Position numbers and translations under genes: made by a program
The notes under the pieces: generated by a model
Database searches by the model: none
Seen by the model: the letters and a program-made list of their open reading frames with translations, nothing else
Told to the model about the DNA's origin: nothing
Assembly: GCA_028713535.1 (NCBI GenBank)
Contig: JAQTOC010000003.1
Coordinates: forward strand, 7,556-71,555
Reading direction: 5' to 3'
Origin: Candidatus Nanoarchaeia archaeon
GTDB lineage: Archaea > Nanobdellota > Nanobdellia > SCGC-AAA011-G17 > JACPNG01
DNA length: 64,000 nt
Shown: positions 7,540-60,768 of the stretch, one piece after another
Numbering within the stretch: the stretch's first letter is position 1
Layout of the letters: each line of letters opens with the position of its first letter

Positions 7540-7579
7540 CTTAAAACACTAATCTCTTCTCATTTAAATAATTTTTCTA

Positions 7580-8401: not shown

Positions 8402-8546
8402 CTCTCTTATAAAATCACAAAATATAAATGTTTCGCTTAATTTTTCAATAATAAATCATTTTAGTACTAAAACTTTTTAGCAGAACCCGTAACTTTTTCC
8501 CTTTTTTCTTTATCATCTATTTTAACCTTAATTATTATTTATTTTT

Positions 8547-9365: not shown

Positions 9366-9419
9366 CCTTTTCAGTATTTTATCATAAACTCTTTTTAATA
9401 AAACTTCATTGAAGACCTT

Positions 9420-37388: not shown

Positions 37389-38459
37389 ATGAAAAAAGGG
37401 GTTATCTCGCAGAGTTTTATATATATCTTTGCTGCAATAATCATGATCCTGATTTTAATCCTTGGTTTTTCAATATTTTCAAAATCCAAAAAATATGCAG
37501 AAGACGTTGATATACAAAGCTTTGTTCAAACATTAAACTCAAAAATAACTAAGATTAATGGCCTTGAAGAAGGGTCTGAATCAGTTTTTTCGTATGCTTT
37601 GCCCTCTAGCATTAATAAAATTTGTTTTGCAACAAATGCAAAGAGTTCAGATGCAGATTTAATATCTGTTTATAATCCTGAAAAAAATCTGTATATGTTT
37701 CCTGGCAATGCCTATTCTTTGAATGAAATTTATTTAGAAAATCCTATTTGTGTTTCCGGAAATAATCTAAACCTAAAACTGCTTAAACTGAAACAGGGAG
37801 TTACTATAACCTCTGAACAAGTCTCTCAGAAATGTAATACTCTCTTGTTTAACAAGGAAGATAATCTGGATATTCTGTTTATTTCAGACTCCTATCAAAA
37901 TATTAATGAATTTGTTGAAGATTCAAAAGAATATGTTAATTCTCTTCTTTCCAAAGAGCCATTAAAATCTAAAAAACAACTGCTTAATTTTTATTCCCTT
38001 AATCAATTCCCAGACCTTGGCTGCACAAAAGATTCCCTCTTGATTTGTGATACATTGTTAGTGCAAAAAGCAGCTTTAGACTGCCCTCATGACATTATTG
38101 TTGTTTTGTCTGAATCCGGCATGTTTTCCGGATTAAGGTCAACAAGTCTTGGAAATGTTATCTCAATAGCTACTGGAGACAATAATCTTGTTTTAAGCCA
38201 CGAACTTGGTCATGCTTTGGGTTTGTCAGATGAATATACAATGCCTGGATTCAAAAGCAGCTTAGAAGATTCTCCAAACTGCGATGTATCTCCCTGTGAA
38301 AAATGGGATAAGAACGGATGTTTTGAAGGATGTTCAAGTTCAGCTTATAACAGGCCATCAAAAGATTCTATCATGAAAAGCTATGGCCTTTTTTCAGTAA
38401 ACGAATTCAATGAACCTTCAAAGGAAGCAATGAGCAAAAAACTGGAGGTTTATGAATGA
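37389..38459 (+). CDS. secreted/anchored putative zinc metallopeptidase
   Basis: MKKG + hydrophobic anchor; 'HELGHALGLSDEY' HExxHxxGxxD motif. Confidence 0.5.
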   Translation: MKKGVISQSFIYIFAAIIMILILILGFSIFSKSKKYAEDVDIQSFVQTLNSKITKINGLEEGSESVFSYALPSSINKICFATNAKSSDADLISVYNPEKNLYMFPGNAYSLNEIYLENPICVSGNNLNLKLLKLKQGVTITSEQVSQKCNTLLFNKEDNLDILFISDSYQNINEFVEDSKEYVNSLLSKEPLKSKKQLLNFYSLNQFPDLGCTKDSLLICDTLLVQKAALDCPHDIIVVLSESGMFSGLRSTSLGNVISIATGDNNLVLSHELGHALGLSDEYTMPGFKSSLEDSPNCDVSPCEKWDKNGCFEGCSSSAYNRPSKDSIMKSYGLFSVNEFNEPSKEAMSKKLEVYE

Positions 38460-48212: not shown

Positions 48213-49403
48213 ATGGTGTCTGGTAATAAAGGGAAATCTACGAATAAGGATAGCCCTAAAAATAAAAATCCACGAAAGTTTTATGTTACAGATTTACTAA
48301 GAAACTTTTCAAATCATTCTGTTGCAGATATCATGCATCAGGTAAAATATGAGCTTAAAACCCAGCCAGATTACGCAATTGATGCATTCGAAGAACAATG
48401 GAAATACCTTGAAGAACAGAGAGCTAGAGCAAAGGGAGAACACGTAAATTCTTTGGATTTAGCTAATCGATTGCTTGGGATGGAACAGGGTCTTGCTTAT
48501 AAAAATCTAAATTTTAAAAATTTAAGAGAAGAACTGAGTAAAACTACTGATAAAAAAAAGCAGGAAAAATTGGAAAAGGATATGTTGGTTCTTCTTGTAA
48601 ATGCAGTCCATGATAAACAACAAGAGATTGGGAGAATTGCTCAGGAAGCAAAGCTGGATAAACCCGGTGGAAAATATCTTCAAGGAACGATTGAAGATCT
48701 AATAAAATACAATCAGCTTAACTTTGATTACCAAGGCAAAAAGAAGTTTGATACTGTTGGTGCTCAAAAGTATATTGAGGAACAACTAAGGGCGGGAAAA
48801 TCCAAGGAAGAGATTGCAGATTCAATGTATAAAAATATGGATAAGTACGAAAAAGATTCTGGTTTGCTTTACAGGATGAAAGGCGTAGGAGAATTCTTTA
48901 GGGCATTGAGGCATCCAAAAAGAAATATTTTTGACAGGACCAGGCGTAAACTTGGCTTATCAAATTATTCTGGTGGTGGAAAAGAATACTTAAATGAGGT
49001 AACTGAATTGTTAAAAGAAAACAAAGGGATTATTTCTGATAAAGTTGAAGATTCGGTTAACAAAATAAAAAAAGCAGAGGCTTACAAGGGTGTAGTCGAA
49101 CTTCTTCATGAAGGAGGATATATGAAAAGCAAGTCAGACTACCACACTTTGTCTGATGCTATAAGAGTTTATGGCAAAACTCACAAAAAGGAGATGAAAA
49201 AGCACATGTTAGAAGATTTGGCAGCAGCAATATTGTTCTGGGCTGCAGGAATTGTCGCTTTGGTAAGGGCAAAAGGATCACCAATCACAGGAGCAGTTGT
49301 AATATCAAATATTAATTTAGACCCCAATAATATCTTGTTTATAATTGGGTTCTTATGCTTGATTGTAGGTACAGCGGTGTTCTTGCACAGCAGACATAAA
49401 TAA
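48213..49403 (+). CDS. hypothetical protein with C-terminal TM anchor (396 aa)
   Basis: Charged helical body, two C-terminal hydrophobic helices. Confidence 0.45.
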   Translation: MVSGNKGKSTNKDSPKNKNPRKFYVTDLLRNFSNHSVADIMHQVKYELKTQPDYAIDAFEEQWKYLEEQRARAKGEHVNSLDLANRLLGMEQGLAYKNLNFKNLREELSKTTDKKKQEKLEKDMLVLLVNAVHDKQQEIGRIAQEAKLDKPGGKYLQGTIEDLIKYNQLNFDYQGKKKFDTVGAQKYIEEQLRAGKSKEEIADSMYKNMDKYEKDSGLLYRMKGVGEFFRALRHPKRNIFDRTRRKLGLSNYSGGGKEYLNEVTELLKENKGIISDKVEDSVNKIKKAEAYKGVVELLHEGGYMKSKSDYHTLSDAIRVYGKTHKKEMKKHMLEDLAAAILFWAAGIVALVRAKGSPITGAVVISNINLDPNNILFIIGFLCLIVGTAVFLHSRHK

Positions 49404-49442
49404 GAAAATTTATAAAAGAACTATTTCTAGAATTCCCTATAT

Positions 49443-49526
49443 GCGGGAGTGCCGGAGCGGTCAAACGGGATAGGTTTAGGCCCTATTGGCTTAGTGCCTG
49501 CGCAGGTTCGAACCCTGTCTCCCGCA
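49443..49526 (+). tRNA. tRNA-Leu (anticodon UAG), long variable arm
   Basis: Acceptor gcgggag/ctcccgc, anticodon arm atagg-TTTAGGC-cctat, long variable arm, T-loop ttcgaac; 3' end 4 nt from stop of convergent giant ORF. Confidence 0.8.
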
Positions 49527-49529
49527 GAA

Positions 49530-52500
49530 TTATAATTTAATGCTTAACTTTTCAGAATATTCTTTTCCGTCTATTTTTACTTTAATCGAGAATGTGTACC
49601 ATCCGCCTGTTTCAAATCTATCTAAATTAATGACTAACTGATTATTGTTTTTTATTTCAACATCAACCTTAAACATGTTTGCCGTAGCTTCAGCAGACTC
49701 AACATCTGTGTTGAGGTCAATTGTTAATTCCTTTCCATTAGAAGAATATTTTTTAATTAGTTTTTCATTGCATTTAGTATTCTCACAGCCAAACACACAT
49801 TCCTGGCTTGTTTTTAATTCATTGCTTTCGCATTTTATGATGCTTTTTTTATCATCGCTGCATTTAAGTCCTCCTTCCTTTAAGCCACTGCATCCATCTT
49901 CTTTTGCTTCCTCAGTTTTTTCAGCAGCAACCTCGCTTTTTTTCTCAAAGACATCGCCATGATCCCCTTCACTCCTGTAATCTTCTTTTCCTTTTCCAGC
50001 TTCAAGATAAATGAATCCGGTCTGGTAATATATTTCTGCTCTAAGCTCACTGTTCTGAACAGAATCCAATAATGCCTGCAATTCTTTTACGCTTTTTGTG
50101 TTTTTAATCTCGCTTAACTTAGTCTCTTTCTCTTCATCAGTCAGGGCAGTTATTCCCTTGTTCCTTAAATTTTCTACCTTTTTCTCTTCAAGATAGGAAG
50201 ATACATTTTCATAATTGCTAAGTGAGTCAAGACTAAAGCTTCTTGTGTCTAGCCAGCAGTCTCCAAGCGCAATCCCGTTGCTGTCTTTTCCGCAGCTTCC
50301 AGCTCTTCTCCAATAATCGTTCTCAGAATTTCCATCTGGATCATTAACAGAACAAATTCTCCTTATGCTGTCGGTGCTTGATCCAACTCCAGTTATGGTG
50401 TCCAGACTTTCTTCAATCTTTGATTTTTCTTCAGGAACACACTCTTCTTCATTTGTAATTTCTTTTGTTGCTTCTTCAGCAACAGCGTCGTCCTGCAGTT
50501 TATTTAATGCATAATCTGTTGTTACCCTTCCAAATCCGCATTCAGTTACCTCATTTATTTCAATGCACACCTCTTCAAAGCCTTCCCCTGCCACAGTATC
50601 AACATTCTTTGTGACATAGCCTCCATATTCTATCTGGCCTTTTGATTCGCTTGTGCTTCCTTCATCCCCAAATGTAACATAATGCCTTCTTCCAGTGCTG
50701 CTGTCTCTTAAATAGACTCTGTAGCTTAACTGTGTTGGTGCATTTGCTTCCTGTGTTGTTCCTGCATATATGTGGAAGAACACATTGTATTCATTTGCTC
50801 CAAATTTCTCACTGTATGTTTTTGAGCTTAATGTTGCTATGTATTGTGGTGGATCTCTTGGATTTACCAGTTTTGTTATAAACTCTCCAAGATTTGGTAT
50901 TGATCCAGTAACAACACCCTTGCATAACTCCATTTTTATCTGGGTTAATTTTGTTGATTTGTAAGATTGATCTACAATTGTTCCATACTCGCTTGTGAAA
51001 AATTCAACACTTTTCAATGCGGTTTCATAGCTGCTTGAGAAGTCTAGGTATTCTCCCCCGCCATCTGTGCTACTGCTGCTAATCATATTTCCATTGAAGA
51101 AATTGCTGATAAATTGGGTTGCTCCTTCTGCTTCTCTCCAGAAAACATCACAAATGTAGATGCTTTGTATTTTGTCGCATAAACCTACACTCTTTCCGTC
51201 TTCTTTTTGTGTTGTCAAGCAATCTTTTCCTGATTGGAATATAGATCTTATGTTCTTTAACCCAGCTAATATTCCTGTTGCACAAACAGGGAGTATGTCT
51301 CCAGAACCTTGTGGCAATACAATAGATCCGATAATGCCGGATCTTACTACATCCTTGACATACCAGTTGCCGCCTGCATTAAATCTTGAGACAGGGCATA
51401 CGATTGGATCGCATACATTGAATAACATTTTGCAGTCAGAGACACTCATCGAATCTGTGCAGTGGCCTATTGCTTTGTTTAGTTCTTTGTTTGCAGCATT
51501 TGTTTCGCAGTTAAACCATTTTCCGTCTTTGCTTTTTATTCTTTGTCCTTGTGTGCAGGTCTTTAATGAGTTTACATATGTCTGATACTTTAATAATTTG
51601 GAGGGTTCTTTTTCCTTTAGGAAACTGCTGCTCTCTAAACTGATGTCATCACCAGTGCATAATTTTCCGTCAGGGCCAACATTGTATGAACTGATTTCTC
51701 CTGCGCTTCCGTCAGCAAGTTGTTTTGTGACTTTTAAGTATACTCCTTTCTCATAAGGAACGCAGTAGGGTTTTCCGTCAGAGTAGAATTCTGCCGCAGC
51801 ATTCTTGTCATAATCTTTTCTTTCCCCTTTGTTGTCAGTTTCTTTTAGTACTAAATAACAGCCATTACTTGATGTGTATAATGAAGAAGCGCCAACAATC
51901 TTATTTAAATTCCCGCTGACATCCACACGATTAAGATCATTTATTGTTTGTACAGTTTTTCCTTCGTTGTCTACAACAAACCCAACCCCCTTTCCATTTT
52001 CAATTACAACCTCTGATATCGAGCCAGTTATTTCTTCGCATCCAACAGGTTTTTTATCTGTATTTGCCTTCCATTCTGACTGTCTTTTCTTGAAAGTCTC
52101 TGAACTTTGTGATTCAAGGCTGCTGTAAACAGTGTCGAATATTTTCTTTTTGTTCTCGTCGCTCTTTATGTCCTCTCCGAATAGGCTTTTAACCTCTGAA
52201 TATATCTCATTCTTTTTCTGCACGCTTTTTATTAAAGTATCCTTTTGTTTTTTTATTGTTTCAAAATATGCCTTTTCTTTTCCGCTGGTTCCATCTGGTT
52301 TATTATTGAGTATTGAGTTTAAGAAGAGATATTCTTTAACTTCATCGCTGTCAACCGTTAGTTCCTTTCCATTTTCATCAATTTTTGCTTCTTTTGCAAG
52401 ATCGCTATAAGCTTGTGTAGAATAAATGTTCCCATCTTTTAATGCATCATTGAAATCCTCTATTTTCTCATCTACCTCATCAATAATATTCTCTGCAAAC

Positions 52501-55481
52501 GCTCCTGTTTCAGTCAAGCACTTATCGTAGCTTTCATAGTATTTTCCGACCTTGCTTACAGACTCCAGATTTATGTTCATGATGCTGTTAGTCTGACAGA
52601 ACTCTTTTATTCCCATAACATTATCGTAGCCATTCATTACAACACTTCTTGCATCAGCTTTGTTCCCCAGCAAGAAGTTCTTGGCTGTTATGAACATGAA
52701 TGTTGCACCGCAACCAATAGTCCACCCCTTTACTATGTCTTCTGTTTTGTTAATAATTCCATTTAAGCTGTCTATAACAGAGTCAAGATTGTCTATATGG
52801 GTATCTAATTCCTCTGTTGTTAAATTAAATAATTTAATTCCCTTGTCAATTGGTATGTTTACATTGAACTCACTTGTGCTGTACACATTTGCTCTCCCAG
52901 GGATTATGGAAATCTGGGCTGCCTTGATTGCTTTAACTTCTTTAAGCTCAACTTCAATCTCCTTGCCAGAACTGTCCTTAATTTTTTCTTCTTCGTTTAT
53001 TTTTAATGTTTTTGAATCATCAGCTTTTGCTGATGGAAAATGATATCCGTTTTTTAATTGTTCAGAATTTTTGTTGTAGTTGCTGTTTCCAAGGAGGGCG
53101 TTTTCTAGCTGGTTTCTCAATTCAATTATTTTTTCGACATAAGTTTCATCTGCTGCTTGTTTTTCGCCGTCACAGGACATTCCATTGTATAATCTCAGTG
53201 CTCTTTCCCAACCCTTGTAATTTTTCCACGTTTCAATATAACTTGTGCAGTATGTGTTGTCCTTTAATCTGTCAACCATTGAGTTGTAGCTTGTTGCATC
53301 TTTGGTTTTTTCATATTTTAATTTTAGGAACTTAACTCCTGCTTTGATGTTTTCCTCAGCATCAAACCTTATATCCTGTTCCTTTGTTTTTTCAGATTTG
53401 CTTAGCTCAGCCAACTGTTCCAGATATTTTTTGTTATCTATCTTATATGCACAGGTTGATTTTTGTCCTTCAAGCTCCTTGTAGATATTTTCATCTTTTA
53501 TCCCTGCCTCATTTGCTGCCCCAGGCATTAACTGCATCAAACCCACTGCGCCGCAATAACCCTCGTTTGTTTTTGATATTGCTTTTGTATCAAATCCGCT
53601 TTCAATAGCAATCAGTGCTTTTACCAGTAATGGATCAACATCATACTCCTTGGAATATTTTAGGATTAAACTGTCATAATCATTTTTTATTGTTCTCCCG
53701 CCTATTTGTGTTGCACTTATTGCAATATCACTTTCTGTCAAAGCAGTTGGGTTTTTGATGTAATCCCCTGTTGTAATAATGATATTCTTGTCATTTATCT
53801 CAACAACCTTGTAGTCTGTTCCCTTTAATTTGGCTGATATCCCATAACTGTCTACTTGGTTGTCAACACTTACTTTTGCAGAAGCTCCAACCTGTTTTTT
53901 TATTGTTTTTAGCTCGATAATTGCTTCTTCTCCGTCAATATCTATGTTTTCTGAGGATGAGACCGTTGTTCCAATTGCATCCTTGAGATATTCTCCGTAC
54001 ATTGGAAGCAAGGCCGGATTTTTTATGTTTCCTAGCTCATCTAAAATCCTGCTCTTGAAAGAGTTGACATCATCCAATTCATTTGCATTTGTTGCTTTTT
54101 TTATTAAGTCCCTGTAAGCTAAGATAATCTGTTCTGTATATCTGTCCCAATCGTCTGCATTAGATATGACATACTCTCTTGCCCTGTTGAAGTTTGCGAT
54201 GGCTTCGCAATCCAAATCAAATGTTAAATCACTTTCAGGGTCTGGATTGCTTTTTGATCCTGAACATGGATTTACATTGCTGTAAGTTTGTTCATTTTTG
54301 TTTATTATTAAATTAATGGTCTTTTCTTCTTTTTTGTTGGTTAGTTTAACCTCTCCAGATTCATCTTCATCTTTTATTTCTTCAACAAACCAGTCTGTCC
54401 CAGATATGTAATTATTTTCAAATGCTTCAATTATGTTTATCTGATCTTCTTTGTATATCTCAAAAATTGCGCTTTTGCCCAACGAGTTAAGTATGCTGTC
54501 AAGCCTAACTCTTATCGTATCTGTTGCAGAGCTGCTGAACAATGAACTAAGTCCGCCCAAAGACATTGCAGATGTAGTCTCGCCAACCTTTAATGTTTGG
54601 AGTCCGCCAACAGAAGTTAATGTATTGTCATAAACCTGGATTGTTGCAGAATCATCCTCTATATTGTCTAGTCTTACATAATAAGCTCCATCTAAGAAAG
54701 AATCTTGGTAAGTTGAATCAATTCCTTCTGCAAAAGAAGTTGCTCCCTGATCTGTTCGTCTGCTTAATTTTTCTGTTAACGAAGTCCAGATATTTCGCAG
54801 CCCCTCAGTAACTGTTCTGGATTCCCTTGACGCATCTCCCGCGAACTCATCTTTGCTCTTCTGGTATATCAATTTTGTTAGTTGTCCATAGTTTAAGGTT
54901 CTGGCAGTACTAAACTCAATCCTTGCACTCAGGTTTAAGTCTATATTCTCTGGGATTTGATCTTCACTGCTGAATTTATTTAGCTCAATAATAACAATCC
55001 CAAGATTGTCTAAATCATTGTATTCCATTGTGCCAAGTGCACTTTTGATAGGAGACAATTGATCTAGATAAAAACTGGTTGGGGGGTAATAATCAATGCT
55101 TTTTATGTATGGATTGTATGATAGTGGGGTTATTATAATGTTATTTATTGTAGGAACTCCGATTGTGGGTTCGCCTGTGGAAATCTGTTCCCCCAGGAAA
55201 CTCCCGAGAGTGTTTCCACTAAGGTAAACAAACACAGGAACATTTCCTTTTGTTAATAAATTGCTGCTTAATACATTTGGTTCATAATCAGTAGGATAAA
55301 CATTTATTGCCTCTCCTAAATTATCATAGTAGCTTAATCCGCTTCTTATCGTGTCTGTGGAAGCATATCTTGAAATTGTCTGGCTGCTTCTTGAGCTTGG
55401 CTGGGTTCTTGTTGTGGCAGCAAATGATACATTGCTAAGTAAGAAAATTACTATCAATGTTATTGCAATAATCTTTTTCAT
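49530..55481 (-). CDS. giant secreted protein (1983 aa) with internal GH23/SLT lytic-transglycosylase-like domain and Cys-rich C-terminal region
   Basis: Sec signal 'SNVSFA|ATT'; SLT motifs 'ALIAIESGFD...GAVGLMQLMPGAA'; >40 Cys in C-terminal half; start overlaps upstream gene's stop (ATGA). Confidence 0.85.
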   Translation of the reverse strand: MKKIIAITLIVIFLLSNVSFAATTRTQPSSRSSQTISRYASTDTIRSGLSYYDNLGEAINVYPTDYEPNVLSSNLLTKGNVPVFVYLSGNTLGSFLGEQISTGEPTIGVPTINNIIITPLSYNPYIKSIDYYPPTSFYLDQLSPIKSALGTMEYNDLDNLGIVIIELNKFSSEDQIPENIDLNLSARIEFSTARTLNYGQLTKLIYQKSKDEFAGDASRESRTVTEGLRNIWTSLTEKLSRRTDQGATSFAEGIDSTYQDSFLDGAYYVRLDNIEDDSATIQVYDNTLTSVGGLQTLKVGETTSAMSLGGLSSLFSSSATDTIRVRLDSILNSLGKSAIFEIYKEDQINIIEAFENNYISGTDWFVEEIKDEDESGEVKLTNKKEEKTINLIINKNEQTYSNVNPCSGSKSNPDPESDLTFDLDCEAIANFNRAREYVISNADDWDRYTEQIILAYRDLIKKATNANELDDVNSFKSRILDELGNIKNPALLPMYGEYLKDAIGTTVSSSENIDIDGEEAIIELKTIKKQVGASAKVSVDNQVDSYGISAKLKGTDYKVVEINDKNIIITTGDYIKNPTALTESDIAISATQIGGRTIKNDYDSLILKYSKEYDVDPLLVKALIAIESGFDTKAISKTNEGYCGAVGLMQLMPGAANEAGIKDENIYKELEGQKSTCAYKIDNKKYLEQLAELSKSEKTKEQDIRFDAEENIKAGVKFLKLKYEKTKDATSYNSMVDRLKDNTYCTSYIETWKNYKGWERALRLYNGMSCDGEKQAADETYVEKIIELRNQLENALLGNSNYNKNSEQLKNGYHFPSAKADDSKTLKINEEEKIKDSSGKEIEVELKEVKAIKAAQISIIPGRANVYSTSEFNVNIPIDKGIKLFNLTTEELDTHIDNLDSVIDSLNGIINKTEDIVKGWTIGCGATFMFITAKNFLLGNKADARSVVMNGYDNVMGIKEFCQTNSIMNINLESVSKVGKYYESYDKCLTETGAFAENIIDEVDEKIEDFNDALKDGNIYSTQAYSDLAKEAKIDENGKELTVDSDEVKEYLFLNSILNNKPDGTSGKEKAYFETIKKQKDTLIKSVQKKNEIYSEVKSLFGEDIKSDENKKKIFDTVYSSLESQSSETFKKRQSEWKANTDKKPVGCEEITGSISEVVIENGKGVGFVVDNEGKTVQTINDLNRVDVSGNLNKIVGASSLYTSSNGCYLVLKETDNKGERKDYDKNAAAEFYSDGKPYCVPYEKGVYLKVTKQLADGSAGEISSYNVGPDGKLCTGDDISLESSSFLKEKEPSKLLKYQTYVNSLKTCTQGQRIKSKDGKWFNCETNAANKELNKAIGHCTDSMSVSDCKMLFNVCDPIVCPVSRFNAGGNWYVKDVVRSGIIGSIVLPQGSGDILPVCATGILAGLKNIRSIFQSGKDCLTTQKEDGKSVGLCDKIQSIYICDVFWREAEGATQFISNFFNGNMISSSSTDGGGEYLDFSSSYETALKSVEFFTSEYGTIVDQSYKSTKLTQIKMELCKGVVTGSIPNLGEFITKLVNPRDPPQYIATLSSKTYSEKFGANEYNVFFHIYAGTTQEANAPTQLSYRVYLRDSSTGRRHYVTFGDEGSTSESKGQIEYGGYVTKNVDTVAGEGFEEVCIEINEVTECGFGRVTTDYALNKLQDDAVAEEATKEITNEEECVPEEKSKIEESLDTITGVGSSTDSIRRICSVNDPDGNSENDYWRRAGSCGKDSNGIALGDCWLDTRSFSLDSLSNYENVSSYLEEKKVENLRNKGITALTDEEKETKLSEIKNTKSVKELQALLDSVQNSELRAEIYYQTGFIYLEAGKGKEDYRSEGDHGDVFEKKSEVAAEKTEEAKEDGCSGLKEGGLKCSDDKKSIIKCESNELKTSQECVFGCENTKCNEKLIKKYSSNGKELTIDLNTDVESAEATANMFKVDVEIKNNNQLVINLDRFETGGWYTFSIKVKIDGKEYSEKLSIKL

Positions 55482-57403
55482 GTTAGTTTTGGATATTCAA
55501 AAAATATATTTTCTGGATATCTTGAAAGTTCATCTGCAAATGCTGCAGGGTCTTCATATATTGTGTCTGAGTTGTCATAAACCGCGTAGAATATTATTTT
55601 GCTTGAACTCTTTAATTCATCCCTGTTTATGCTAAAGCTGAAATCTCCTCCGCCAATAAGATTTTGTTTAAAGCTCTGTTCAGGTATTGTATTCTCTATG
55701 CATTCGCTCTTTGTCTTCCCAAGCAAACCCAAGATCCCATCAGGGATATCAACACATTTTGTGAATTTTCTTTCTGGCATTGTGATTGTTTTCCCTTCTT
55801 CAGACATAACATAAGAGTTTATGCTGTATTCTCCAGGAATTATTTTGATTTTTCCTGTTGGATTGCTTAGGACTGTGTTGTAATTATCACTTTTAATCTC
55901 AAACATAACCTGTTCATCCTCTACCTCTCGTGTTGCTCCTGTATTCTTGTTGATTAATTGTACCTCATAATCTAGGTAGTAATAAGGTTCTAGATAGACT
56001 GTGATTTCATTTTCCCTTGTTGTTGAGAGTATCTGGCTTCCTACTCCAAGGTCCTTGTTCTCTGCGACAATCTCCCCATTGACGCAGCTTGGGAAATAAC
56101 TTGTCATTGTTCCGTCGCTTTCCCCGATGTAGCAGTTGCTTACACCGCAGTTATAAGACACCTGCGCAGGAATTTCTTCAAACGTTTCAATGTCTAGTGT
56201 TCTCACATTGACTTCCTTGTTCCTTGAGTTGCATATTGTGTCCTTGAAGTTTGAAACATTCAAGTTTGTTATTGTGTCCACTCTTGGCTGGTTTTTTTCT
56301 ATAACAACCATCGTGGCAAATTGGAATATATCTCCATCAGCCATCAATGTAACTAAAACCGGATATTTTATATCATACGCAAAGTTGTAATTATTTATGC
56401 AGACCATTCCGGATAGAATTTGATTTATTTCACTCCCACCAGCAGCAGAGCCCTTTGCAATTAATAAGTCTCCTTCCCTTGGCTGGACCTCAATTTCAAA
56501 TGGCCAGGTTTCTAAGTACCTTAAATTTACATTAATATCATATTGTTTCTTTAAAGCAGACCACTCGAAATATTTTTCTGTATTTTCATAATTTGTTCCC
56601 TTTATCTTTATGTTTGGGATGTTTAGTTCTATTATTTTTTTAAGTTTAGTAATTATATCATCTACAAACCATGTTTTTACCCCGCAATTAAACTCAGTTC
56701 CAGAATACGGGATATCCTCATATACAGTTAGCATATCAATTGTTTTTTCCTCAAGATAATATTCTTTGCTTTCATCATCAAAAATTTGCCTTGCTACCTT
56801 GTATAATTCTCCAAGGTTTGAATTTACAGAAGTACTGAACTCATCCAGCTTGTATTCGTTGTCCCCTTTCTTTATGGTAACTGGCATGTCCAAACCAACA
56901 CCTATTTTCTTGTCCTGGATGGTTATGTCCACTCTTTTCTCTCCAGTATGGATAGCATACCCTTGGAAATCTGTGAAATTACTAAGACACAATTCCAATG
57001 CGCTTTCAATGAATAATTTTAAGTCGGATTCCATATCAGTTATTGCAGGATAGTTTGTTTTATCAACATTGTTTGCTTTTTTGTAGTACCAATATGGAAC
57101 TTTTGCGTTTCCTGTGGTTAATGCATTTGAAAATTTATTGAAGTCAGAGGCAGGGATGCTATCTTCTTCAACAACAAGGTAACCACCCTGCAAACCAATA
57201 ATCCTCGACCCAATTAGTGTTGTTCTTGCAAGACAGCCCTCTATGTTGCTTCTTACCGCCTCGACTTCTTCACCACCTTTTTCCCCAGAAATAATCTCTG
57301 TACCCTTTTCTAGGATAGAATCCCTGAAAACAAGGAATATAGCAACAAGTACTACCAATATAATACCGATGATGACAAACAGTGAAACCTGGCCTCTTTT
57401 CAT
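55478..57403 (-). CDS. large surface protein (641 aa) with archaeal class III (prepilin-like) signal peptide
   Basis: N-terminus 'MKRG|QVSLFVIIGIILVVLVAIFLVF' fits [KR]G/A-Q + hydrophobic prepilin-peptidase substrate pattern; remainder beta-rich with Cys pairs. Confidence 0.7.
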   Translation of the reverse strand: MKRGQVSLFVIIGIILVVLVAIFLVFRDSILEKGTEIISGEKGGEEVEAVRSNIEGCLARTTLIGSRIIGLQGGYLVVEEDSIPASDFNKFSNALTTGNAKVPYWYYKKANNVDKTNYPAITDMESDLKLFIESALELCLSNFTDFQGYAIHTGEKRVDITIQDKKIGVGLDMPVTIKKGDNEYKLDEFSTSVNSNLGELYKVARQIFDDESKEYYLEEKTIDMLTVYEDIPYSGTEFNCGVKTWFVDDIITKLKKIIELNIPNIKIKGTNYENTEKYFEWSALKKQYDINVNLRYLETWPFEIEVQPREGDLLIAKGSAAGGSEINQILSGMVCINNYNFAYDIKYPVLVTLMADGDIFQFATMVVIEKNQPRVDTITNLNVSNFKDTICNSRNKEVNVRTLDIETFEEIPAQVSYNCGVSNCYIGESDGTMTSYFPSCVNGEIVAENKDLGVGSQILSTTRENEITVYLEPYYYLDYEVQLINKNTGATREVEDEQVMFEIKSDNYNTVLSNPTGKIKIIPGEYSINSYVMSEEGKTITMPERKFTKCVDIPDGILGLLGKTKSECIENTIPEQSFKQNLIGGGDFSFSINRDELKSSSKIIFYAVYDNSDTIYEDPAAFADELSRYPENIFFEYPKLT

Positions 57404-57591
57404 TTTAATGCTATTACTAATTTTGATCCTCCGAGTTTTTTTATCTTGACTAATTTTTTCTTTTGCATATCTTCAATTATGTCTGTGACAGTGGCATTTT
57501 TTATGTTAAAGAAACCAGCAATCATACTGAAATTTACTAGGTTATCCCTCTTCTTTACAAAGTCCAGTATCTCTTCTTCCTTGGGTATCAT
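57400..57591 (-). CDS. small winged-helix protein (63 aa), first gene of the operon
   Basis: 'FSMIAGFFNIKNATVTDIIEDMQKKKLVKI' HTH-like; stop overlaps downstream ATG. Confidence 0.5.
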   Translation of the reverse strand: MIPKEEEILDFVKKRDNLVNFSMIAGFFNIKNATVTDIIEDMQKKKLVKIKKLGGSKLVIALK

Positions 57592-57723
57592 TTAAAGCAC
57601 TTTAAAAGCTTTATTTTAGTCTAAAAGGCTAAAAAAGCCTTTGTTCTTGGTTTAAAATATTTTAAAACCTTTAATAAACTAAGAACATATAGACAGAACT
57701 AATATATAAATATTTTGAAAAGA

Positions 57724-57819
57724 ATGGGCCCGGGGCGAATCGAACGCCCGACCTCCTCCACGTCAAGGAGACGTCATACCTTTGCCCGTTCTTTTTTGGA
57801 GAACTCTAGACCACGGGCC
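57724..57819 (-). tRNA. tRNA-Val (anticodon GAC) with ~23-nt intron in the D-loop region
   Basis: Minus-strand fold: acceptor gggcccg/cgggccc (A73), anticodon arm tctcc-TTGACGT-ggagg, var aggtc, T-arm gggcg-ttcgatt-cgccc; 96 nt = 73-nt mature + 23 nt (ttctccaaaaaagaacgggcaaa) inserted after 'gtctagag'. Confidence 0.7.
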
Positions 57820-57830
57820 CCTTTAAAAAA

Positions 57831-57902
57831 GAGCCCCAGGAGGGACTTGAACCCCCGACCCCCTGATTACAAGTCAGGTGCTCTACCACTGAGCTACTGG
57901 GG
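57831..57902 (-). tRNA. tRNA-Thr (anticodon UGU)
   Basis: Minus-strand: acceptor gccccag/ctggggc, D gctc/gagc, anticodon arm cctga-CTTGTAA-tcagg, T-arm ggggg-ttcaagt-ccctc. Confidence 0.85.
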
Positions 57903-58016
57903 CATAGAGATAACTCATCCTAAGCTTTTTAAAAACATTTCTATTAATACAAATATATACTTAGGATGGAAAAGAGAAGGAATTTCCCTCTCTTATAACT
58001 TGCTTTTGGTTATATA

Positions 58017-58379
58017 TTATATTATTACTGTGGGTGGAGGTTTATCTTCTTCTTTAATGATACTCCTTTCGCTTGTTTCATCTTTTATTGTTTTTTGCAT
58101 ATCCTCCGGTAGGTCTAAAAGAACCTTCTCTAGTTCGCTGGGCGATAGACTACATATGAGTTTGTAGGCGTTGGCTGTATGTATACTTGTTTCAGTGGAT
58201 GGGACTGCGGGGTGTGGTTTGTCTTCTAGATTCATCAGTTTATCTATAGGCACTGATTTTGTTTGAAAAGCCAATCTAGCTATACCTCTGCTGGCAATTA
58301 TCGCACAGACTGCATCTTTAATTGATACAATCTGAGAAGGATCTTCACCGAAATCTTCTGTTTCTTTTTTAGCTGACAA
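58017..58379 (-). CDS. hypothetical protein (120 aa)
   Basis: Intact minus-strand ORF; the overlapping plus-strand ORF 57715..58167 is antisense to two tRNAs and rejected. Confidence 0.4.
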   Translation of the reverse strand: MSAKKETEDFGEDPSQIVSIKDAVCAIIASRGIARLAFQTKSVPIDKLMNLEDKPHPAVPSTETSIHTANAYKLICSLSPSELEKVLLDLPEDMQKTIKDETSERSIIKEEDKPPPTVII

Positions 58380-58520
58380 TTGACCCCCTTCCTTCTTCCG
58401 GTTTTTCCGAAAGATTTCAGAAATTTGCTATGACTATAACTACCAAAAGCTTAAGTTATTTTTGAGAAATTTCCCTTCTCTTTAAATGAAACAGAAAAAT
58501 TATGTAGCACAAATTCCTAT

Positions 58521-60290
58521 TTAAATCTTAGCTTTTAAGACTTCGGCCCCTCTTTTAGTAATCCTAAGCTCTTTTTTCCAGCCCTTGTCATGTTTAATAA
58601 CTTCTGTGGCGATTAAACCAAGATCCTCTAATTTTTTCTTTATGGCATTTCCCCTTCTTACGCTAATTTTAAATAACTCATAAATCTTTGAAATATTAAA
58701 TCCTTCATTCTTAGCTATAAAATCTAAGAACTTTTTTTCTTCATTGTCAAGCTTAAACTCAGGTTTTTTGATTTTAACTTGTTCTTCTAAAAATTCTTTT
58801 GGGGCTGCAACTCCAGAAGCTTTGAAGATATCATCCATTTTTTCTTTTTCTTCATTGACTTCTTTTTCAACTCTCTCTTCAACATAGCCCTTTTCAACCT
58901 CGTCTTGAATTACTTTTTGCCCCATCTTTACTCTTAAATCTTCATCTGTTACAACCTCCTCCTTAAGGCGTACTAAAGGAGTTTTTATCATAAAAGGAGT
59001 TGTATGTCTCTCAGATAATTTTACAAGGGCTTCACCTACCTGCAGCATTGAGAAGTAATCTTTGTGCTCTCTTAGCTGCATGATTCCTGATACTTGTTCA
59101 AGATCATCTGGCAAAACCTGCTGGAAAGCTACATTGCATGCGCTGTTTCCTGCCACAACGTCACTTAACTTAGATATGTGCTGGTCTAAGCAGATTAATC
59201 CAACCCCATACTCCCTGATCTCTCTGTAAACAACCTCTGTTGCGCCTTCTTTTATGAAATTAGGCTTGTCCTTTAAGAATATGTTATGTGCCTCGTCGAT
59301 TATTATTGCCTGGGTGAATTCCCCTCTTGTGGCATTTTCGTTTGTTTTTTTGTATTTGTACAAATAACTTAAGATAAATTCACAGAAGAATTTTTTCTGT
59401 GAGCTGTTTAATGAATGCAATTCAAATAATAACTTATCTCCAAAATAATCTTCAACTTTTACGCTGTCTTTTCCTTTATAGCCTATAACGTCCCCAAAGT
59501 CTCCAAAAGTTAATGCATGTGCTATTCTTAATGCAGAAATCAGCCATTCACTCTCTCTGTTTCTTATCTTCATTTCTTCTTCCTTGATTTCTAATCTGTC
59601 TTTAATCTGATGCCAGGTAGGATAATTTTCAGAACCTTCATACACCCCAAATTCTCTAAATGATTCATCCAAGGTTTCAACAATTATTTTATGTACTCCA
59701 TAGCTTGCAAAGAAACTCTCTGTAACCATATCTGCTAACAGGCTGATCCATTCTTTAGGAGGAACTCCTTGAGGCGGCCTGTTGATGTTTATCTTGAAGT
59801 TATTGTTTATCTTGGAGTTGCCTATCGTGTAAACTTTTATTTGGTTGTCAACTAAAACCAAAGACCTAAAACTTTTTTTCCAGTCAAATATCCAGAAGGG
59901 CTTGTTATTTTTTATTAAGTTTCCAATAATTACAAAAGCAAAATTTGTTTTTCCAGATCCGCTCATCCCGCTGATGCATACGTGTCTTGGCCAGTCTTTG
60001 TCTCTTAACCCAAAAGGATAATAGTCTTTTTCAGCATAAGTTATTACCCCCAATGGATAATCTCCGCCTATTATTTCTTTTTTTGGAGGCTCAAGAAGTA
60101 TTTTCTGGCTCAGCATGCTCTGATTTAAATGTTTGTGATACAAAGCACTTATTGCCTGTTCAATTTCAAATTTCTCGTCCCCTCTTTCTGCTAATCTGTA
60201 TCTTAGATAAAGGGCATCAATCTTTTTACCAAAGACAGGCCTTAGTTTCCTGCATAGTTCTTCTATAGTTAATTCTTTATCAAATGCCAT
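58521..60290 (-). CDS. HerA/FtsK/VirB4-superfamily (DUF87-like) ATPase with C-terminal winged-helix domain
   Basis: Walker A 'ISGMSGSGKTNFA', Walker B 'AIIIDEAHNIF', 589 aa, acidic linker then wHTH-like 'FLDFIAKNEGFNISKIYELFKISVRRGNAIKKKLEDLGLI'. Confidence 0.75.
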   Translation of the reverse strand: MAFDKELTIEELCRKLRPVFGKKIDALYLRYRLAERGDEKFEIEQAISALYHKHLNQSMLSQKILLEPPKKEIIGGDYPLGVITYAEKDYYPFGLRDKDWPRHVCISGMSGSGKTNFAFVIIGNLIKNNKPFWIFDWKKSFRSLVLVDNQIKVYTIGNSKINNNFKININRPPQGVPPKEWISLLADMVTESFFASYGVHKIIVETLDESFREFGVYEGSENYPTWHQIKDRLEIKEEEMKIRNRESEWLISALRIAHALTFGDFGDVIGYKGKDSVKVEDYFGDKLLFELHSLNSSQKKFFCEFILSYLYKYKKTNENATRGEFTQAIIIDEAHNIFLKDKPNFIKEGATEVVYREIREYGVGLICLDQHISKLSDVVAGNSACNVAFQQVLPDDLEQVSGIMQLREHKDYFSMLQVGEALVKLSERHTTPFMIKTPLVRLKEEVVTDEDLRVKMGQKVIQDEVEKGYVEERVEKEVNEEKEKMDDIFKASGVAAPKEFLEEQVKIKKPEFKLDNEEKKFLDFIAKNEGFNISKIYELFKISVRRGNAIKKKLEDLGLIATEVIKHDKGWKKELRITKRGAEVLKAKI

Positions 60291-60291
60291 C

Positions 60292-60768
60292 TTAGTCTAG
60301 AATCTTGTCCAGCATGTTTGCTTCACTCTGTTTTTCCCTTAATTCCTTGCTCCACTCTCTTAATTCTTTTTTAAGCAAGGCAATGTCTCTCCAGCATTCA
60401 AGTTTTTCTTTAACCTTCATCTCTTCCAGTTCTGCTTTTTTCTTGAGTAAGTTTAGCCTCTCGCTTGAAGCGTTAGGATCCATTGTAGATACGCTTATGG
60501 TCATTGTATTAATCTGGCTTACAATTTTATCAATGTCATTCATAAGTTCCTTTGTTAGTTTTTTTCTTTCTTCAATAAGCTCGGCAATCTCTCTTTGGCT
60601 TTCTATCAATGAGTTGATATCTTTCTTTTGTATGTCCTTAAGAATTTCGTCTCCGCCAATAACCTGGTCTTCAAAGGCCGCACTATAGTCTTTTAACTTT
60701 GGCCTTTCCTTCTTATGTTCCATCTCTAGGTCAGACAGGAACCCTTCTAAAATATCTTTTTTTGCCAT
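60292..60768 (-). CDS. coiled-coil protein (158 aa), translationally adjacent to the ATPase
   Basis: Heptad-rich E/K sequence; stop 1 nt from ATPase start codon. Confidence 0.5.
   Translation of the reverse strand: MAKKDILEGFLSDLEMEHKKERPKLKDYSAAFEDQVIGGDEILKDIQKKDINSLIESQREIAELIEERKKLTKELMNDIDKIVSQINTMTISVSTMDPNASSERLNLLKKKAELEEMKVKEKLECWRDIALLKKELREWSKELREKQSEANMLDKILD

What the first reader, a model, noticed from the sequence alone, without database searches (positions are those of the whole stretch)
53320..53730. GH23/SLT lytic-transglycosylase-like domain embedded in an archaeal giant protein
Residues ~585-720 of the giant protein read '...YDVDPLLVKALIAIESGFDTKAI...EGYCGAVGLMQLMPGAANEAG...'. 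This matches the SLT (soluble lytic transglycosylase, GH23) signature, including the catalytic E-S motif and GLMQ segment. The surrounding genes are clearly archaeal, and archaea lack murein. This suggests acquisition from bacteria or phage. One possible role is targeting a peptidoglycan-bearing partner or prey. An alternative is adaptation to an archaeal glycan.
Basis: partly seen in the sequence, partly recalled or inferred. Interest (0 to 1): 0.75.

Follow-up and report, generated by a model that had tools for sequence, protein, structure and literature searches.

The report
Known DPANN giant protein with murein-cutting domain
A tiny symbiotic archaeon encodes a 1,983-residue secreted protein with an intact bacterial-type cell-wall-cutting (SLT) domain; this is real and probably aimed at bacterial peptidoglycan, but this kind of protein has been described in these archaea since 2015-2021 and this exact one is already annotated in NCBI.

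Summary
Observation confirmed. The quoted peptide is on the minus strand in a 1,983-aa ORF (49530-55481). Pfam SLT scores 52.4 bits against a cutoff of 21.3. The motifs E627-S628, GLMQLMP, N-I-x-x-G and two conserved Tyr are present. An AF2 model matches only lytic transglycosylases (MltE, MltC, Slt70, MltF). The domain is longer than reported (aa ~605-792, window 53106-53669) because two insertions split it. The flanking genes are core archaeal genes.

It is not new. The identical protein is in NCBI as 'transglycosylase SLT domain-containing protein [Candidatus Nanoarchaeia archaeon]'. Castelle et al. 2021 described Woese-/Pacearchaeota proteins of up to 3,000 aa with this domain and proposed the same bacterial-cell-wall idea.

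What I add:
- The giant belongs to a very large family: 1,092 clusters at 50% identity and 465 matching stretches in the species-representative genome collection.
- A ~640-aa partner with a prepilin-like signal is almost always encoded directly upstream.
- SLT is an accessory module. It is found in about 20-30% of members, at two different positions, and the catalytic Glu is kept in 50 of 50.
- Other members carry M23, MurNAc-L-Ala amidase, NlpC/P60, M15, 3D/DPBB or SGNH modules in the variable regions. This points to bacterial murein as the target, not an archaeal glycan.
- The neighbouring HerA-like ATPase is unrelated to the system (linked in 2 of 80 loci).

No biochemistry, expression data or host is known.

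The parts
49530..55481 (-). Giant gene, 1,983 aa. It encodes a secreted modular protein of the Woese-/Pacearchaeota giant family and is identical to the NCBI record 'transglycosylase SLT domain-containing protein [Ca. Nanoarchaeia archaeon]'.
   Evidence: ORF list and translation. P0001 is 100% identical over 100% of the length.
55416..55481 (-). N-terminal Sec-type signal peptide (aa 1-22, MKKIIAITLIVIFLLSNVSFA|A). It is the only strongly hydrophobic segment in the protein.
   Evidence: Hydropathy scan. Similar N-termini in most homologues. The cleavage site is inferred by eye; no signal-peptide predictor was available.
53772..55415 (-). Conserved N-block of the scaffold (aa 23-570). No known domain.
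   Evidence: BLAST blocks shared with P0002-P0008. No Pfam hit.
53106..53669 (-). Complete SLT / GH23 family-1 lytic transglycosylase module (aa ~605-792), in the variable slot between the N-block and the rest of the scaffold.
   Evidence: Pfam SLT 52.4 bits. Custom SLT HMM aligns aa 600-792 end to end. AF2 model pTM 0.71. Foldseek top hits are MltE, MltC, Slt70, MltF, T7 gp16 and phiKZ gp144, with probability 0.96-1.00 for ranks 1-42.
53598..53603 (-). Codons for Glu627-Ser628, the catalytic E-S motif.
   Evidence: Coordinates. Aligned with the ES motif of MltE and MltC. Invariant in alignment A1. Glu kept in 50 of 50 family SLT modules.
53523..53543 (-). GLMQLMP motif (aa 647-653), SLT motif II.
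53367..53495 (-). Insertion 1 within the SLT module (aa 663-705), shared with P0002 and P0004. Low model confidence. Contains Cys677.
   Evidence: Alignment A1. pLDDT below 50 for parts of it. 49% identical to P0002.
53238..53300 (-). Insertion 2 within the SLT module (aa 728-748). Contains Cys745.
   Evidence: Alignment A1.
49992..51944 (-). Cys-rich C-block (aa 1180-1830), the family-defining core. It has about 15 invariant Cys and the motif LFNVCDPxxCPxSRFNxGG. No known fold.
   Evidence: Alignment A2. 1,092 representative clusters match and 465 stretches in species-representative genomes. No fold match.
55478..57403 (-). Partner gene, 641 aa. It overlaps the giant gene's start by 4 nt. Its N-terminus MKRGQVSLF plus about 20 hydrophobic residues looks like a class III (prepilin-type) signal.
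   Evidence: Partner directly upstream in 70 of 80 loci. Motif K[RK]GQx[ST] in 54 of 63 partners. No Pfam, PHROG or NCBIfam hit.
57400..57591 (-). 63-aa winged-helix protein, overlapping the partner gene's start by 4 nt. Probable operon regulator in this sub-clade.
   Evidence: Weak Fe_dep_repress and MarR hits, all below Pfam cutoffs. Conserved in L001, L003 and L005. Found in 11 of 80 loci.

Best explanation
The giant protein is exported by the Sec pathway and sits on or near the surface of a small, host-dependent Nanoarchaeia (Woese-/Pacearchaeota-type) cell. It is probably associated with its co-transcribed ~640-aa partner, which carries a prepilin-type signal. The conserved scaffold (N-block plus Cys-rich C-block) is a lineage-wide surface device of unknown core function. 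In this species a catalytically competent family-1 lytic transglycosylase module is inserted between the scaffold blocks. On contact with a bacterium, this module would cleave the MurNAc-beta-1,4-GlcNAc bonds of the sacculus, with Glu627 as the acid/base catalyst and 1,6-anhydroMurNAc ends as the product. That would open the wall locally, allowing attachment, access to the host membrane or cytoplasm, or lysis.

Shown: the domain identity, the intact motifs, the fold, the export signal, the operon structure, and the family-wide repertoire of murein-hydrolase modules.

Inferred: surface location, association with the partner, processing by a prepilin peptidase, enzymatic activity, and the bacterial target.
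For: - SLT identity: Pfam 52.4 bits against cutoff 21.3. The ES, GLMQ, NIxxG and two-Tyr motifs are invariant in A1. The ES motif aligns with that of MltE and MltC. Fold hits are exclusively lytic transglycosylases.
- Selection for catalysis: the Glu is kept in 50 of 50 and E-S in 44 of 50 SLT modules of the family, although those modules share only about 27% pairwise identity. The SLT core containing the catalytic motif is 62% identical to P0002, similar to the scaffold blocks at 58-67%.
- Export: an N-terminal signal and no other hydrophobic segment.
- Murein as the target: the variable segments of the same family carry SLT (16 segments), M23 (4), Amidase_3 (3, best E 2.3e-42), GDSL/SGNH (4), 3D (3), NlpC/P60 (2), SH3_3 (2), DPBB_1 (1) and Peptidase_M15_4 (1). 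Fragments of family members carry OmpA-family, glucosaminidase and trypsin-like modules.
- Fusion/fission link: in L008 the giant has no SLT, but the next gene, overlapping by 4 nt, encodes an SLT-like + SGNH-like + 3D protein.
- A chromosomal, vertically inherited locus among ribosomal, TFB and GAN genes.
- Published hypothesis of the same kind: PMC8204110 and PMC9723730. Secreted archaeal peptidoglycan hydrolases of another class have been shown to kill bacteria: PMC12352652.
Against: - No activity assay, expression data or identified host exists for this protein or for any relative.
- No cultivated Woese-/Pacearchaeote with a bacterial host turned up in my literature searches. One preprint mentions only 'potentially even bacterial hosts' for DPANN.
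- About two thirds of family members have no recognisable murein hydrolase, so the scaffold's core role does not depend on cutting peptidoglycan.
- The two insertions in the SLT module are modelled with low confidence. Their effect on the substrate groove is unknown.
- The AYNAG motif is degenerate (N-Y-K-G).
- The prepilin-type signal of the partner is inferred from a motif only.
- The count of Glu retention has some ascertainment bias, because the modules were detected with an HMM that contains that column.
Confidence: 0.55

Rival explanations
1. Scavenging rather than attack. The secreted giant protein digests free peptidoglycan fragments or dead bacterial cell walls so the genome-reduced archaeon can harvest amino sugars and amino acids, without any contact-dependent interaction with a living host.
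For: The same enzymology and export signal fit this reading. The mixed set of glycan-, amide- and peptide-cutting modules in the family could serve complete degradation. PMC11537232 discusses Pacearchaeota taking bacterial amino acids from peptidoglycan through a carboxypeptidase.
Against: A ~2,000-aa Cys-rich scaffold with a pilin-signal partner is an elaborate carrier for a simple digestive enzyme. No transporter or muropeptide-catabolism genes lie in the conserved neighbourhood. Each species usually carries one module type rather than a complete degradative set.
Confidence: 0.2
2. Non-catalytic use. The SLT module serves only as a peptidoglycan- or glycan-binding adhesin domain that anchors the archaeon to a surface.
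For: The separate SLT-like protein in L008 has lost the Glu (NLSSNF) and has GLMA in place of GLMQ. This shows that inactive SLT-like versions occur in this system. Castelle et al. also mention attachment.
Against: The window's module keeps E-S, GLMQ, N/G and both Tyr. The Glu is kept in 50 of 50 embedded modules despite about 27% pairwise identity. A binding-only domain would not need this.
Confidence: 0.07
3. Different substrate. The module has been adapted to an archaeal or other non-murein glycan, such as pseudomurein of a methanogen host, chitin-like polymers, or the archaeon's own envelope glycans.
For: Archaea lack murein. From general knowledge of CAZy (not tested here), some GH23 members act on chitin. 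The two lineage-specific insertions could reshape the groove.
Against: Sister proteins carry MurNAc-L-Ala amidase, M23, M15 D-Ala-D-Ala peptidase, NlpC/P60 and bacterial SH3 modules at equivalent positions. These recognise murein-specific peptide stems. The motifs are canonical for murein lytic transglycosylases. PMC12352652 notes that archaeal peptidoglycan hydrolases are nearly absent from pseudomurein producers.
Confidence: 0.07
4. Mobile-element or machine accessory, or contamination. The SLT belongs to a prophage tail or tape-measure protein, or is a VirB1-like wall-piercing component of a conjugation/DNA-transfer machine driven by the adjacent HerA/VirB4-like ATPase. Alternatively, the contig is bacterial DNA that was misassembled or misbinned.
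For: PDB and PHROG hits include a phage tape-measure protein and lytic tail proteins. A HerA/CedD/TraC-like ATPase lies 3 kb upstream.
Against: The ATPase is linked to the giant gene in only 2 of 80 loci and is separated from the operon by a tRNA gene. There are no phage structural genes nearby. The locus is syntenic among ribosomal, TFB and GAN genes across genomes whose giants share only 30-60% identity. GC is uniform. Archaeal marker genes flank the gene on both sides of the same contig.
Confidence: 0.03

Closest known systems
[quoted passage not shown] 2021, PMC8204110; earlier noted in Rinke 2013 and Castelle 2015; 'large lytic murein transglycosylase', Vigneron et al. 2022, PMC9723730)
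   Same: Same lineage (Nanoarchaeia), same size class (up to ~3,000 aa), same SLT/GH23 domain, predicted extracellular, and the same hypothesis of binding or degrading bacterial cell walls. The window protein is almost certainly a member.
   Different: Nothing essential differs. The papers I could read do not describe several features found here: the conserved pilin-signal partner gene, the Cys-rich core, the two alternative positions of the SLT module, the alternative murein-hydrolase modules, or the fact that most family members lack SLT.
Bacterial family-1 lytic transglycosylases (E. coli MltE/EmtA, MltC, Slt70; P. aeruginosa MltF and Slt)
   Same: Catalytic E-S motif, GLMQ, NIxxG, conserved Tyr residues and the lysozyme-like helical fold. 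These are the top sequence and fold matches.
   Different: The bacterial enzymes are 20-70 kDa periplasmic or lipoprotein enzymes that remodel the producer's own wall. Here the module is embedded in a 1,983-aa secreted protein of an organism without murein. It carries two insertions of about 43 and 21 aa, four Cys, and a degenerate AYNAG motif (NYKG).
Phage virion-associated lysins with SLT domains (T7 gp16, phiKZ gp144, tape-measure proteins such as PDB 9b45 gp41)
   Same: An SLT module embedded in a very large structural protein and used to breach another cell's peptidoglycan from outside.
   Different: There is no phage context. The gene is chromosomal, syntenic and Sec-exported. The scaffold has no similarity to tape-measure or ejectosome proteins.
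Secreted archaeal peptidoglycan hydrolases that kill bacteria (PLoS Biol 2025, PMC12352652) and bacterial polymorphic toxin / 'warhead-swapping' proteins
   Same: An archaeal secreted enzyme aimed at bacterial murein. The conserved delivery scaffold with interchangeable enzymatic modules resembles the logic of polymorphic toxins.
   Different: The enzymes investigated in detail in that paper are small M23 + PG-binding proteins, zoocin A homologues found in Halobacteriales and Nanoarchaeia, not SLT giants. The resemblance to polymorphic toxins is an analogy of architecture only. No immunity gene or dedicated secretion system was found.

Membership tests
SLT / GH23 family-1 lytic transglycosylase (Pfam PF01464) | Profile match above the curated gathering score | tested here: met
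   52.4 bits against 21.3, E=4.7e-14, aa 605-662. A custom HMM aligns aa 600-792 over all 125 positions.
SLT / GH23 family-1 lytic transglycosylase (Pfam PF01464) | Catalytic Glu in the E-S motif at the end of a helix | tested here: met
   E627-S628 aligns with the ES motif of MltE and MltC. Invariant in A1. E38 of the model lies at the C-terminal end of helix 28-39.
SLT / GH23 family-1 lytic transglycosylase (Pfam PF01464) | Motif II G-L-M-Q, the N-I-x-x-G block, the A-Y-N-x-G Tyr and the C-terminal Tyr | tested here: met
   GLMQLMP 647-653, N711, G715, Y755 (in the degenerate block N-Y-K-G) and Y781.
SLT / GH23 family-1 lytic transglycosylase (Pfam PF01464) | Lysozyme-like all-helical fold | tested here: met
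   AF2 pTM 0.71, pLDDT 70. All 50 listed Foldseek PDB hits are lytic transglycosylases, with probability 0.96-1.00 for ranks 1-42. TM is only 0.4-0.49 because of the low-confidence insertions.
SLT / GH23 family-1 lytic transglycosylase (Pfam PF01464) | Non-hydrolytic cleavage of MurNAc-GlcNAc that yields 1,6-anhydroMurNAc | not testable with these tools
   Requires an enzyme assay on sacculi with LC-MS of the products.
DPANN large extracellular murein-transglycosylase proteins (fam00969, Castelle 2021) | Encoded by a Woese-/Pacearchaeota (Nanoarchaeia) genome | tested here: met
   The identical NCBI protein is from Ca. Nanoarchaeia. The flanks carry archaeal markers. Relatives are labelled Woese-/Pacearchaeota.
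DPANN large extracellular murein-transglycosylase proteins (fam00969, Castelle 2021) | Very large protein (up to ~3,000 aa) that contains an SLT domain and is predicted extracellular | tested here: met
   1,983 aa, SLT present, N-terminal signal, no other hydrophobic segment. The signal was judged by hydropathy only.
DPANN large extracellular murein-transglycosylase proteins (fam00969, Castelle 2021) | Formal assignment to the published cluster fam00969 | not tested
   The cluster's sequences or HMM were not retrieved. Assignment rests on matching the description.
VirB1-type SLT of type IV secretion / conjugation machines | Consistent genetic linkage to a VirB4-class ATPase and channel components | tested here: not met
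   A relative of the window's HerA-like ATPase is present within the fetched flanks in 2 of 80 loci. A tRNA gene separates it from the operon. No other T4SS families were found.
Phage virion-associated lysin / tape-measure protein | Located within a phage structural gene module | tested here: not met
   The neighbours are ribosomal, TFB and GAN genes, syntenic across species. PHROG hits are confined to the SLT module.
Archaeal type IV pilin-like proteins (class III signal), for the 641-aa partner | N-terminal [KR]-G|[QA]-x-[ST] processing motif followed by a hydrophobic helix | tested here: met
   MKRGQVSLF plus about 20 hydrophobic residues. The motif is present in 54 of 63 partners.
Archaeal type IV pilin-like proteins (class III signal), for the 641-aa partner | Processing by a prepilin peptidase and assembly by a PilB/PilC-type machine | not tested
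   No such genes appear among the families listed for the window. The rest of the genome was not examined.

The most novel reading that the evidence does not exclude
The giant protein and its pilin-signal partner form a lineage-wide Woese-/Pacearchaeota cell-surface apparatus. Its variable slots carry interchangeable murein-specific 'warheads': SLT, M23, amidase, NlpC/P60, M15, or 3D+SGNH. On this reading it is a polymorphic weapon or attachment organ that lets many of these archaea live on, or prey on, bacteria across the domain boundary, and the type of warhead reflects the wall chemistry of the bacterial host. The scaffold itself has no detectable known fold.
Probability: 0.35. Interest if true: 0.75.

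Novelty: already known. Interest (0 to 1): 0.35.

Why it matters
All cultivated DPANN archaea live on other archaea. Whether the very diverse, uncultivated Woese-/Pacearchaeota use bacteria as hosts or prey is an open question. Murein-cutting enzymes in organisms without murein are the main genomic clue.

This window adds one more example, not a new clue. The comparative picture assembled here is more useful. A conserved scaffold with a pilin-like partner carries swappable murein-specific enzymes, and the catalytic residue is strictly retained. This sharpens the published hypothesis and gives concrete, testable reagents: the module boundaries, an E627Q control, and the partner protein. It also suggests that the type of enzyme module might help predict the kind of bacterial host.

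Tried and rejected
1. T4SS/conjugation reading. The adjacent 589-aa ATPase looked like a VirB4/HerA/CedD-type motor. It is linked to the giant gene in only 2 of 80 loci and is separated from the operon by tRNA-Thr. Rejected.

2. Prophage or tape-measure reading. PHROG and PDB hits are confined to the SLT module, and the neighbours are housekeeping genes. Rejected.

3. Contamination. Archaeal markers lie on both sides of the gene and GC is uniform. Rejected.

4. Phylogenetic origin of the SLT module. An NJ tree of 75 SLT modules, without bootstraps, was unresolved. Family modules are as distant from each other (about 27% identity) as from the bacterial SLTs (29-31%). The bacterial set was biased toward best hits. 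No conclusion on one versus several acquisitions, or on a bacterial versus phage donor.

6. P0003's replacement segment in the SLT slot ('HYRESS...ELYNGPGY'). It has no Pfam or meaningful PDB hit, only a weak PHROG endolysin hit at E=0.005. Left inconclusive.

7. The word-indexed homologue search with the SLT module alone did not recover the archaeal relatives and returned only weak bacterial SLTs. The same search with the C-block profile returned mostly fragments. The exhaustive representative search and the genome scan were needed.

8. No pilus-assembly, prepilin-peptidase or other peptidoglycan-related families appeared among the families listed for the rest of the 64-kb window.

Full report
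**1. The observation**

The window has a 5,952-nt minus-strand ORF (49530..55481) encoding 1,983 aa. The stated coordinates 53320-53730 correspond to aa 584-721.

Pfam gives SLT (PF01464) at E=4.7e-14, 52.4 bits against a gathering score of 21.3. It also gives a just-sub-threshold Glucosaminidase match spanning aa 607-792. NCBIfam lytic-transglycosylase models and many PHROG lytic tail, endolysin and transglycosylase families match the same stretch.

The Pfam alignment stops at profile position 54 of 117. An alignment with P0002, P0004 and bacterial SLTs (A1) shows why. Two insertions (aa ~663-705 and ~728-748) split the domain, and the later motifs follow them:
- FDAEENIKAG
- a Tyr755 block, N-Y-K-G, equivalent to AYNAG
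- Tyr781

**2. Is it a competent lytic transglycosylase?**

- E627-S628, G-x-G-L-M-Q-L-M-P, N711, G715, Y755 and Y781 are invariant or nearly invariant columns in A1.
- In a direct phmmer search of PDB sequences, 'aliaiesg' aligns with the catalytic ES motifs of E. coli MltE/EmtA and MltC.
- An AF2 model of aa 590-800 (pLDDT 70, pTM 0.71) is confident in the core helices and poor in the insertions.
- Foldseek against the PDB returns only lytic transglycosylases (MltE, MltC, Slt70, Slt and MltF of P. aeruginosa, T7 gp16, phiKZ gp144). Probability is 0.96-1.00 for ranks 1-42. TM is 0.4-0.49, depressed by the insertions.

**3. Organism and context**

The identical protein (P0001) is in NCBI as 'MAG: transglycosylase SLT domain-containing protein [Candidatus Nanoarchaeia archaeon]'.

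The window is archaeal throughout. It encodes rpS3Ae, rpS15, GAN/Cdc45-like DHH-CID, rpS8e, TFB, tRNA-splicing endonuclease, RNase Z-like, LonB, ArgRS, rpL1, rpL10, Alba and diphthamide synthase. GC is uniform at about 35%.

The giant gene is the last gene of a three-gene operon with 4-nt overlaps:
- a 63-aa winged-helix protein (57400-57591)
- a 641-aa protein (55478-57403)
- the giant gene

tRNA-Thr (57831-57903) separates this operon from an upstream 589-aa HerA/FtsK/VirB4-class ATPase. tRNA-Leu follows the giant's stop codon.

**4. The family**

Close and distant homologues (P0002-P0009, 25-59% identity) share an N-block (aa 1-570) and a large C-terminal region (aa ~812-1830). The region between these blocks, where the SLT sits, is variable.

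The locus is syntenic (rpS15, GAN, rpS3Ae ... partner, giant ... rpL37e, LSM, rpS8e, TFB) in related genomes.

A profile of the Cys-rich C-block (aa 1180-1830; about 15 invariant Cys; motif LFNVCDPxxCPxSRFNxGG; A2) was used in two searches:
- It finds 1,092 clusters at 50% identity in 1.84 billion representatives, 940 of them at E<=1e-30. Most of the 150 best that are listed are 1,700-3,000 aa, and the shorter ones are probably fragments.
- It finds 465 stretches in GTDB species-representative genomes. The top 80 are labelled Woesearchaeota, Pacearchaeota, Nanoarchaeota/Nanoarchaeia or simply 'archaeon'. The one record titled 'bacterium' (L083) carries archaeal rpS3Ae, rpS8e and TFB beside the gene.

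In those 80 loci:
- The ~640-aa partner gene is directly upstream in 70. Most of the others appear to be cut by a contig end.
- rpS8e, TFB and rpS3Ae are frequent neighbours (35, 26 and 22 loci). A relative of the window's ATPase is present in only 2.

So the giant plus partner is an old, chromosomal, lineage-wide gene pair. The ATPase is a bystander.

**5. SLT is an accessory module**

With an HMM built from A1, 25 of 80 giants carry an SLT module and 4 more loci have one in an adjacent ORF. Of 156 representative proteins, 30 carry one. These are lower bounds.

The module occurs at two positions: before the C-block, as in the window (8 representatives), or in the C-terminal tail (21 representatives).

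In L008/L009 the giant has no SLT. The next gene, overlapping by 4 nt, encodes a 1,001-aa protein with an SLT-like domain, a GDSH/SGNH-like motif and a 3D domain. In that one case the SLT-like block has lost its Glu (NLSSNF).

Across all embedded modules whose alignment covers the motif, the Glu is kept in 50 of 50 and E-S in 44 of 50. These modules share only about 27% pairwise identity. Between the window protein and P0002, the SLT core containing the catalytic motif is 62% identical, as conserved as the scaffold blocks at 58-67%. This argues for retained catalysis, allowing for a mild detection bias.

**6. What the variable regions carry elsewhere**

A Pfam scan of 103 variable segments from the 80 giants (tails and mid-slots, all within the same ORF as the C-block) found the following:

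| Domain | Segments |
|---|---|
| SLT | 16 |
| Peptidase_M23 | 4 |
| Lipase_GDSL_2 | 4 |
| Amidase_3 (best E 2.3e-42) | 3 |
| Lipase_GDSL | 3 |
| 3D | 3 |
| NlpC/P60 | 2 |
| SH3_3 | 2 |
| Metallophos | 2 |
| TIG | 2 |
| DPBB_1 | 1 |
| Peptidase_M15_4 | 1 |
| DUF2272 | 1 |

TPR repeats (several models, 2-4 segments each) and ankyrin repeats (1 segment) were also found.

Concrete examples: L014, L017 and L018 have 3D+GDSL. L020 and L086 have M23. L022 has Amidase_3 (E 6.6e-42) plus an SLT-like block further upstream in the same protein. L027 has Metallophos. L087 has ankyrin repeats. Fragments of family members also carry OmpA-family, glucosaminidase and trypsin-like domains.

MurNAc-L-Ala amidases, M23 and M15 peptidases and NlpC/P60 enzymes cut bonds of the murein peptide stem. 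Pseudomurein and archaeal S-layers do not have these bonds (established biochemistry of these families, not tested here). The family is therefore best read as a conserved delivery or display scaffold with interchangeable murein-specific enzymes. This makes 'adaptation to an archaeal glycan' unlikely for the SLT version.

**7. The scaffold and the partner**

The giant has a Sec-type signal (MKKIIAITLIVIFLLSNVSFA|A) and no other hydrophobic segment.

The partner begins MKRGQVSLF followed by about 20 hydrophobic residues. The motif K-[RK]-G-Q-x-[ST] is present in 54 of 63 partners across the family, and the rest are near variants. A plain membrane anchor would not need such a conserved polar motif. 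The pattern fits archaeal class III (prepilin-type) signals. This is an inference from the motif, and the peptidase was not looked for outside the window.

**8. Mechanism proposed**

The following steps are inferred except where marked.
- Sec export of the giant (signal shown).
- Association at the cell surface with the pilin-like partner (operon linkage shown, association inferred).
- Contact with a bacterial cell.
- Glu627-catalysed, non-hydrolytic cleavage of MurNAc-GlcNAc bonds (motifs and fold shown, activity inferred).
- Local opening of the sacculus for attachment, access or lysis.

Rivals:
- Scavenging of free peptidoglycan (plausible, 0.2).
- Binding-only adhesin (0.07, disfavoured by Glu retention).
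- A non-murein substrate (0.07, disfavoured by the sister modules).
- Phage, T4SS or contamination (0.03, largely refuted).

**9. Comparison with what is known**

This is a published kind of protein.
- Castelle et al. [quoted passage not shown] They propose extracellular enzymes that attach to or degrade bacterial walls, and cite earlier notes in Rinke 2013 and Castelle 2015.
- Vigneron et al. 2022 (PMC9723730) report 'large lytic murein transglycosylase' GH23 genes in Woesearchaeota MAGs and propose predation.
- Later surveys repeat the observation.
- A 2025 PLoS Biology paper (PMC12352652) reports that archaea produce peptidoglycan hydrolases that kill bacteria and notes that PGH homologues are prominent and diverse in Nanoarchaeota. 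Its detailed work concerns M23 (zoocin A) homologues, not SLT giants.

In the papers I could search, I did not find the partner gene, the Cys-rich core, the two positions of the module, or the alternative warheads on the same scaffold. Absence from my searches is not proof that these are unpublished.

**10. Verdict**

- Observation: confirmed. The strand was not stated and the domain extent needs correcting.
- Interpretation: supported.
- Novelty of the finding as stated: already known.
- Interest is moderate-low for the finding itself (0.35), because it adds one more annotated member of a described family and offers no experimental handle.

The most novel reading not excluded is a polymorphic, murein-targeting surface apparatus that underlies archaeon-on-bacterium symbiosis or predation. 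It would deserve about 0.75 if shown, and I give it about 0.35 probability.

Noticed in passing
window 58521-60290 (-) and 60292-60768 (-): A 589-aa HerA/FtsK/VirB4-class ATPase (DUF87). Its C-terminal ~70-140 aa match PHROG transcriptional-regulator families, suggesting a winged-helix region. The best NCBIfam match is the archaeal DNA-transfer ATPase CedD (65 bits, far below the cutoff of 600). PHROG matches include terminase-large and FtsK-like families. A 158-aa coiled-coil-like gene precedes it. The pair lies beside the giant operon only in the closest relatives (2 of 80 loci), so it is a separate, unexplained two-gene unit.
   Followed up: partly
L008 15439-18444 (+) (also L009): A separate 1,001-aa secreted protein directly downstream of an SLT-less giant. 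It has an SLT-like domain in which the catalytic Glu is replaced (NLSSNF) and GLMQ reads GLMA. It also has a GDSH (SGNH-hydrolase-like) motif and a 3D domain. The same 3D+GDSL pair occurs fused to the giant's tail in L014, L017 and L018.
   Followed up: partly
L003 10001-16117 (protein P0003, aa ~600-770): In the slot where the window protein has SLT, this 37%-identical homologue has an unrelated ~170-aa segment ('WELIAAIHYRESS...AELYNGPGYR'). It has no Pfam or meaningful PDB match and only a weak PHROG endolysin hit (E=0.005). It may be an undescribed lysozyme-like module.
   Followed up: partly
window 49442-49527 (+) and 57831-57903 (-): tRNA-Leu(UAG) ends 3 nt before the low-coordinate end of the giant ORF, on the opposite strand. 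tRNA-Thr(UGU) lies between the ATPase gene and the 63-aa gene. The stretch around it (57600-58520) has no convincing ORF.
   Followed up: no
window 48213-49403 (+): A 396-aa ORF with no Pfam or PHROG match and only a weak NCBIfam hit to a plasmid-replication DNA-binding protein (E=1.2e-4, 22 bits against a cutoff of 85). An ORF of similar size and position, also without a Pfam hit, follows the giant gene in L001 (395 aa) and L003 (308 aa); their similarity was not tested.
   Followed up: no
window 49992-51944 (-) (giant aa 1180-1830): The family-defining C-block has about 15 invariant cysteines and an invariant CDPxxCPxSR...GG motif. It has no detectable relative of known structure. It is a large, widespread domain (1,092 clusters at 50% identity) without a Pfam model.
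   Followed up: partly
L010 741-9433 (+): Four tandem ORFs of ~655 aa lie upstream of the giant P0005. Only the proximal one (7460-9433) matches the partner family and has the KRGQ pilin-type N-terminus. The other three did not match the window's partner by BLASTP and have different N-termini: two look like Sec-type signals and one starts with an internal hydrophobic stretch.
   Followed up: no
L083 (record titled 'bacterium isolate CTOTU29499'); proteins P0191 and P0208: Public records that carry this archaeal family are labelled as bacterial (bacterium, Ignavibacteria, Thermodesulfobacteriota). L083 has archaeal rpS3Ae, rpS8e and TFB beside the gene, so at least that label is wrong. The other two are fragments on contigs under 3 kb and are probably misbinned.
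   Followed up: partly
window 37389-38459 (+): A 356-aa protein with a Peptidase_M64 (IgA-peptidase-like) match. A similarly annotated gene lies at the far end of the syntenic region in L001 and L003.
   Followed up: no
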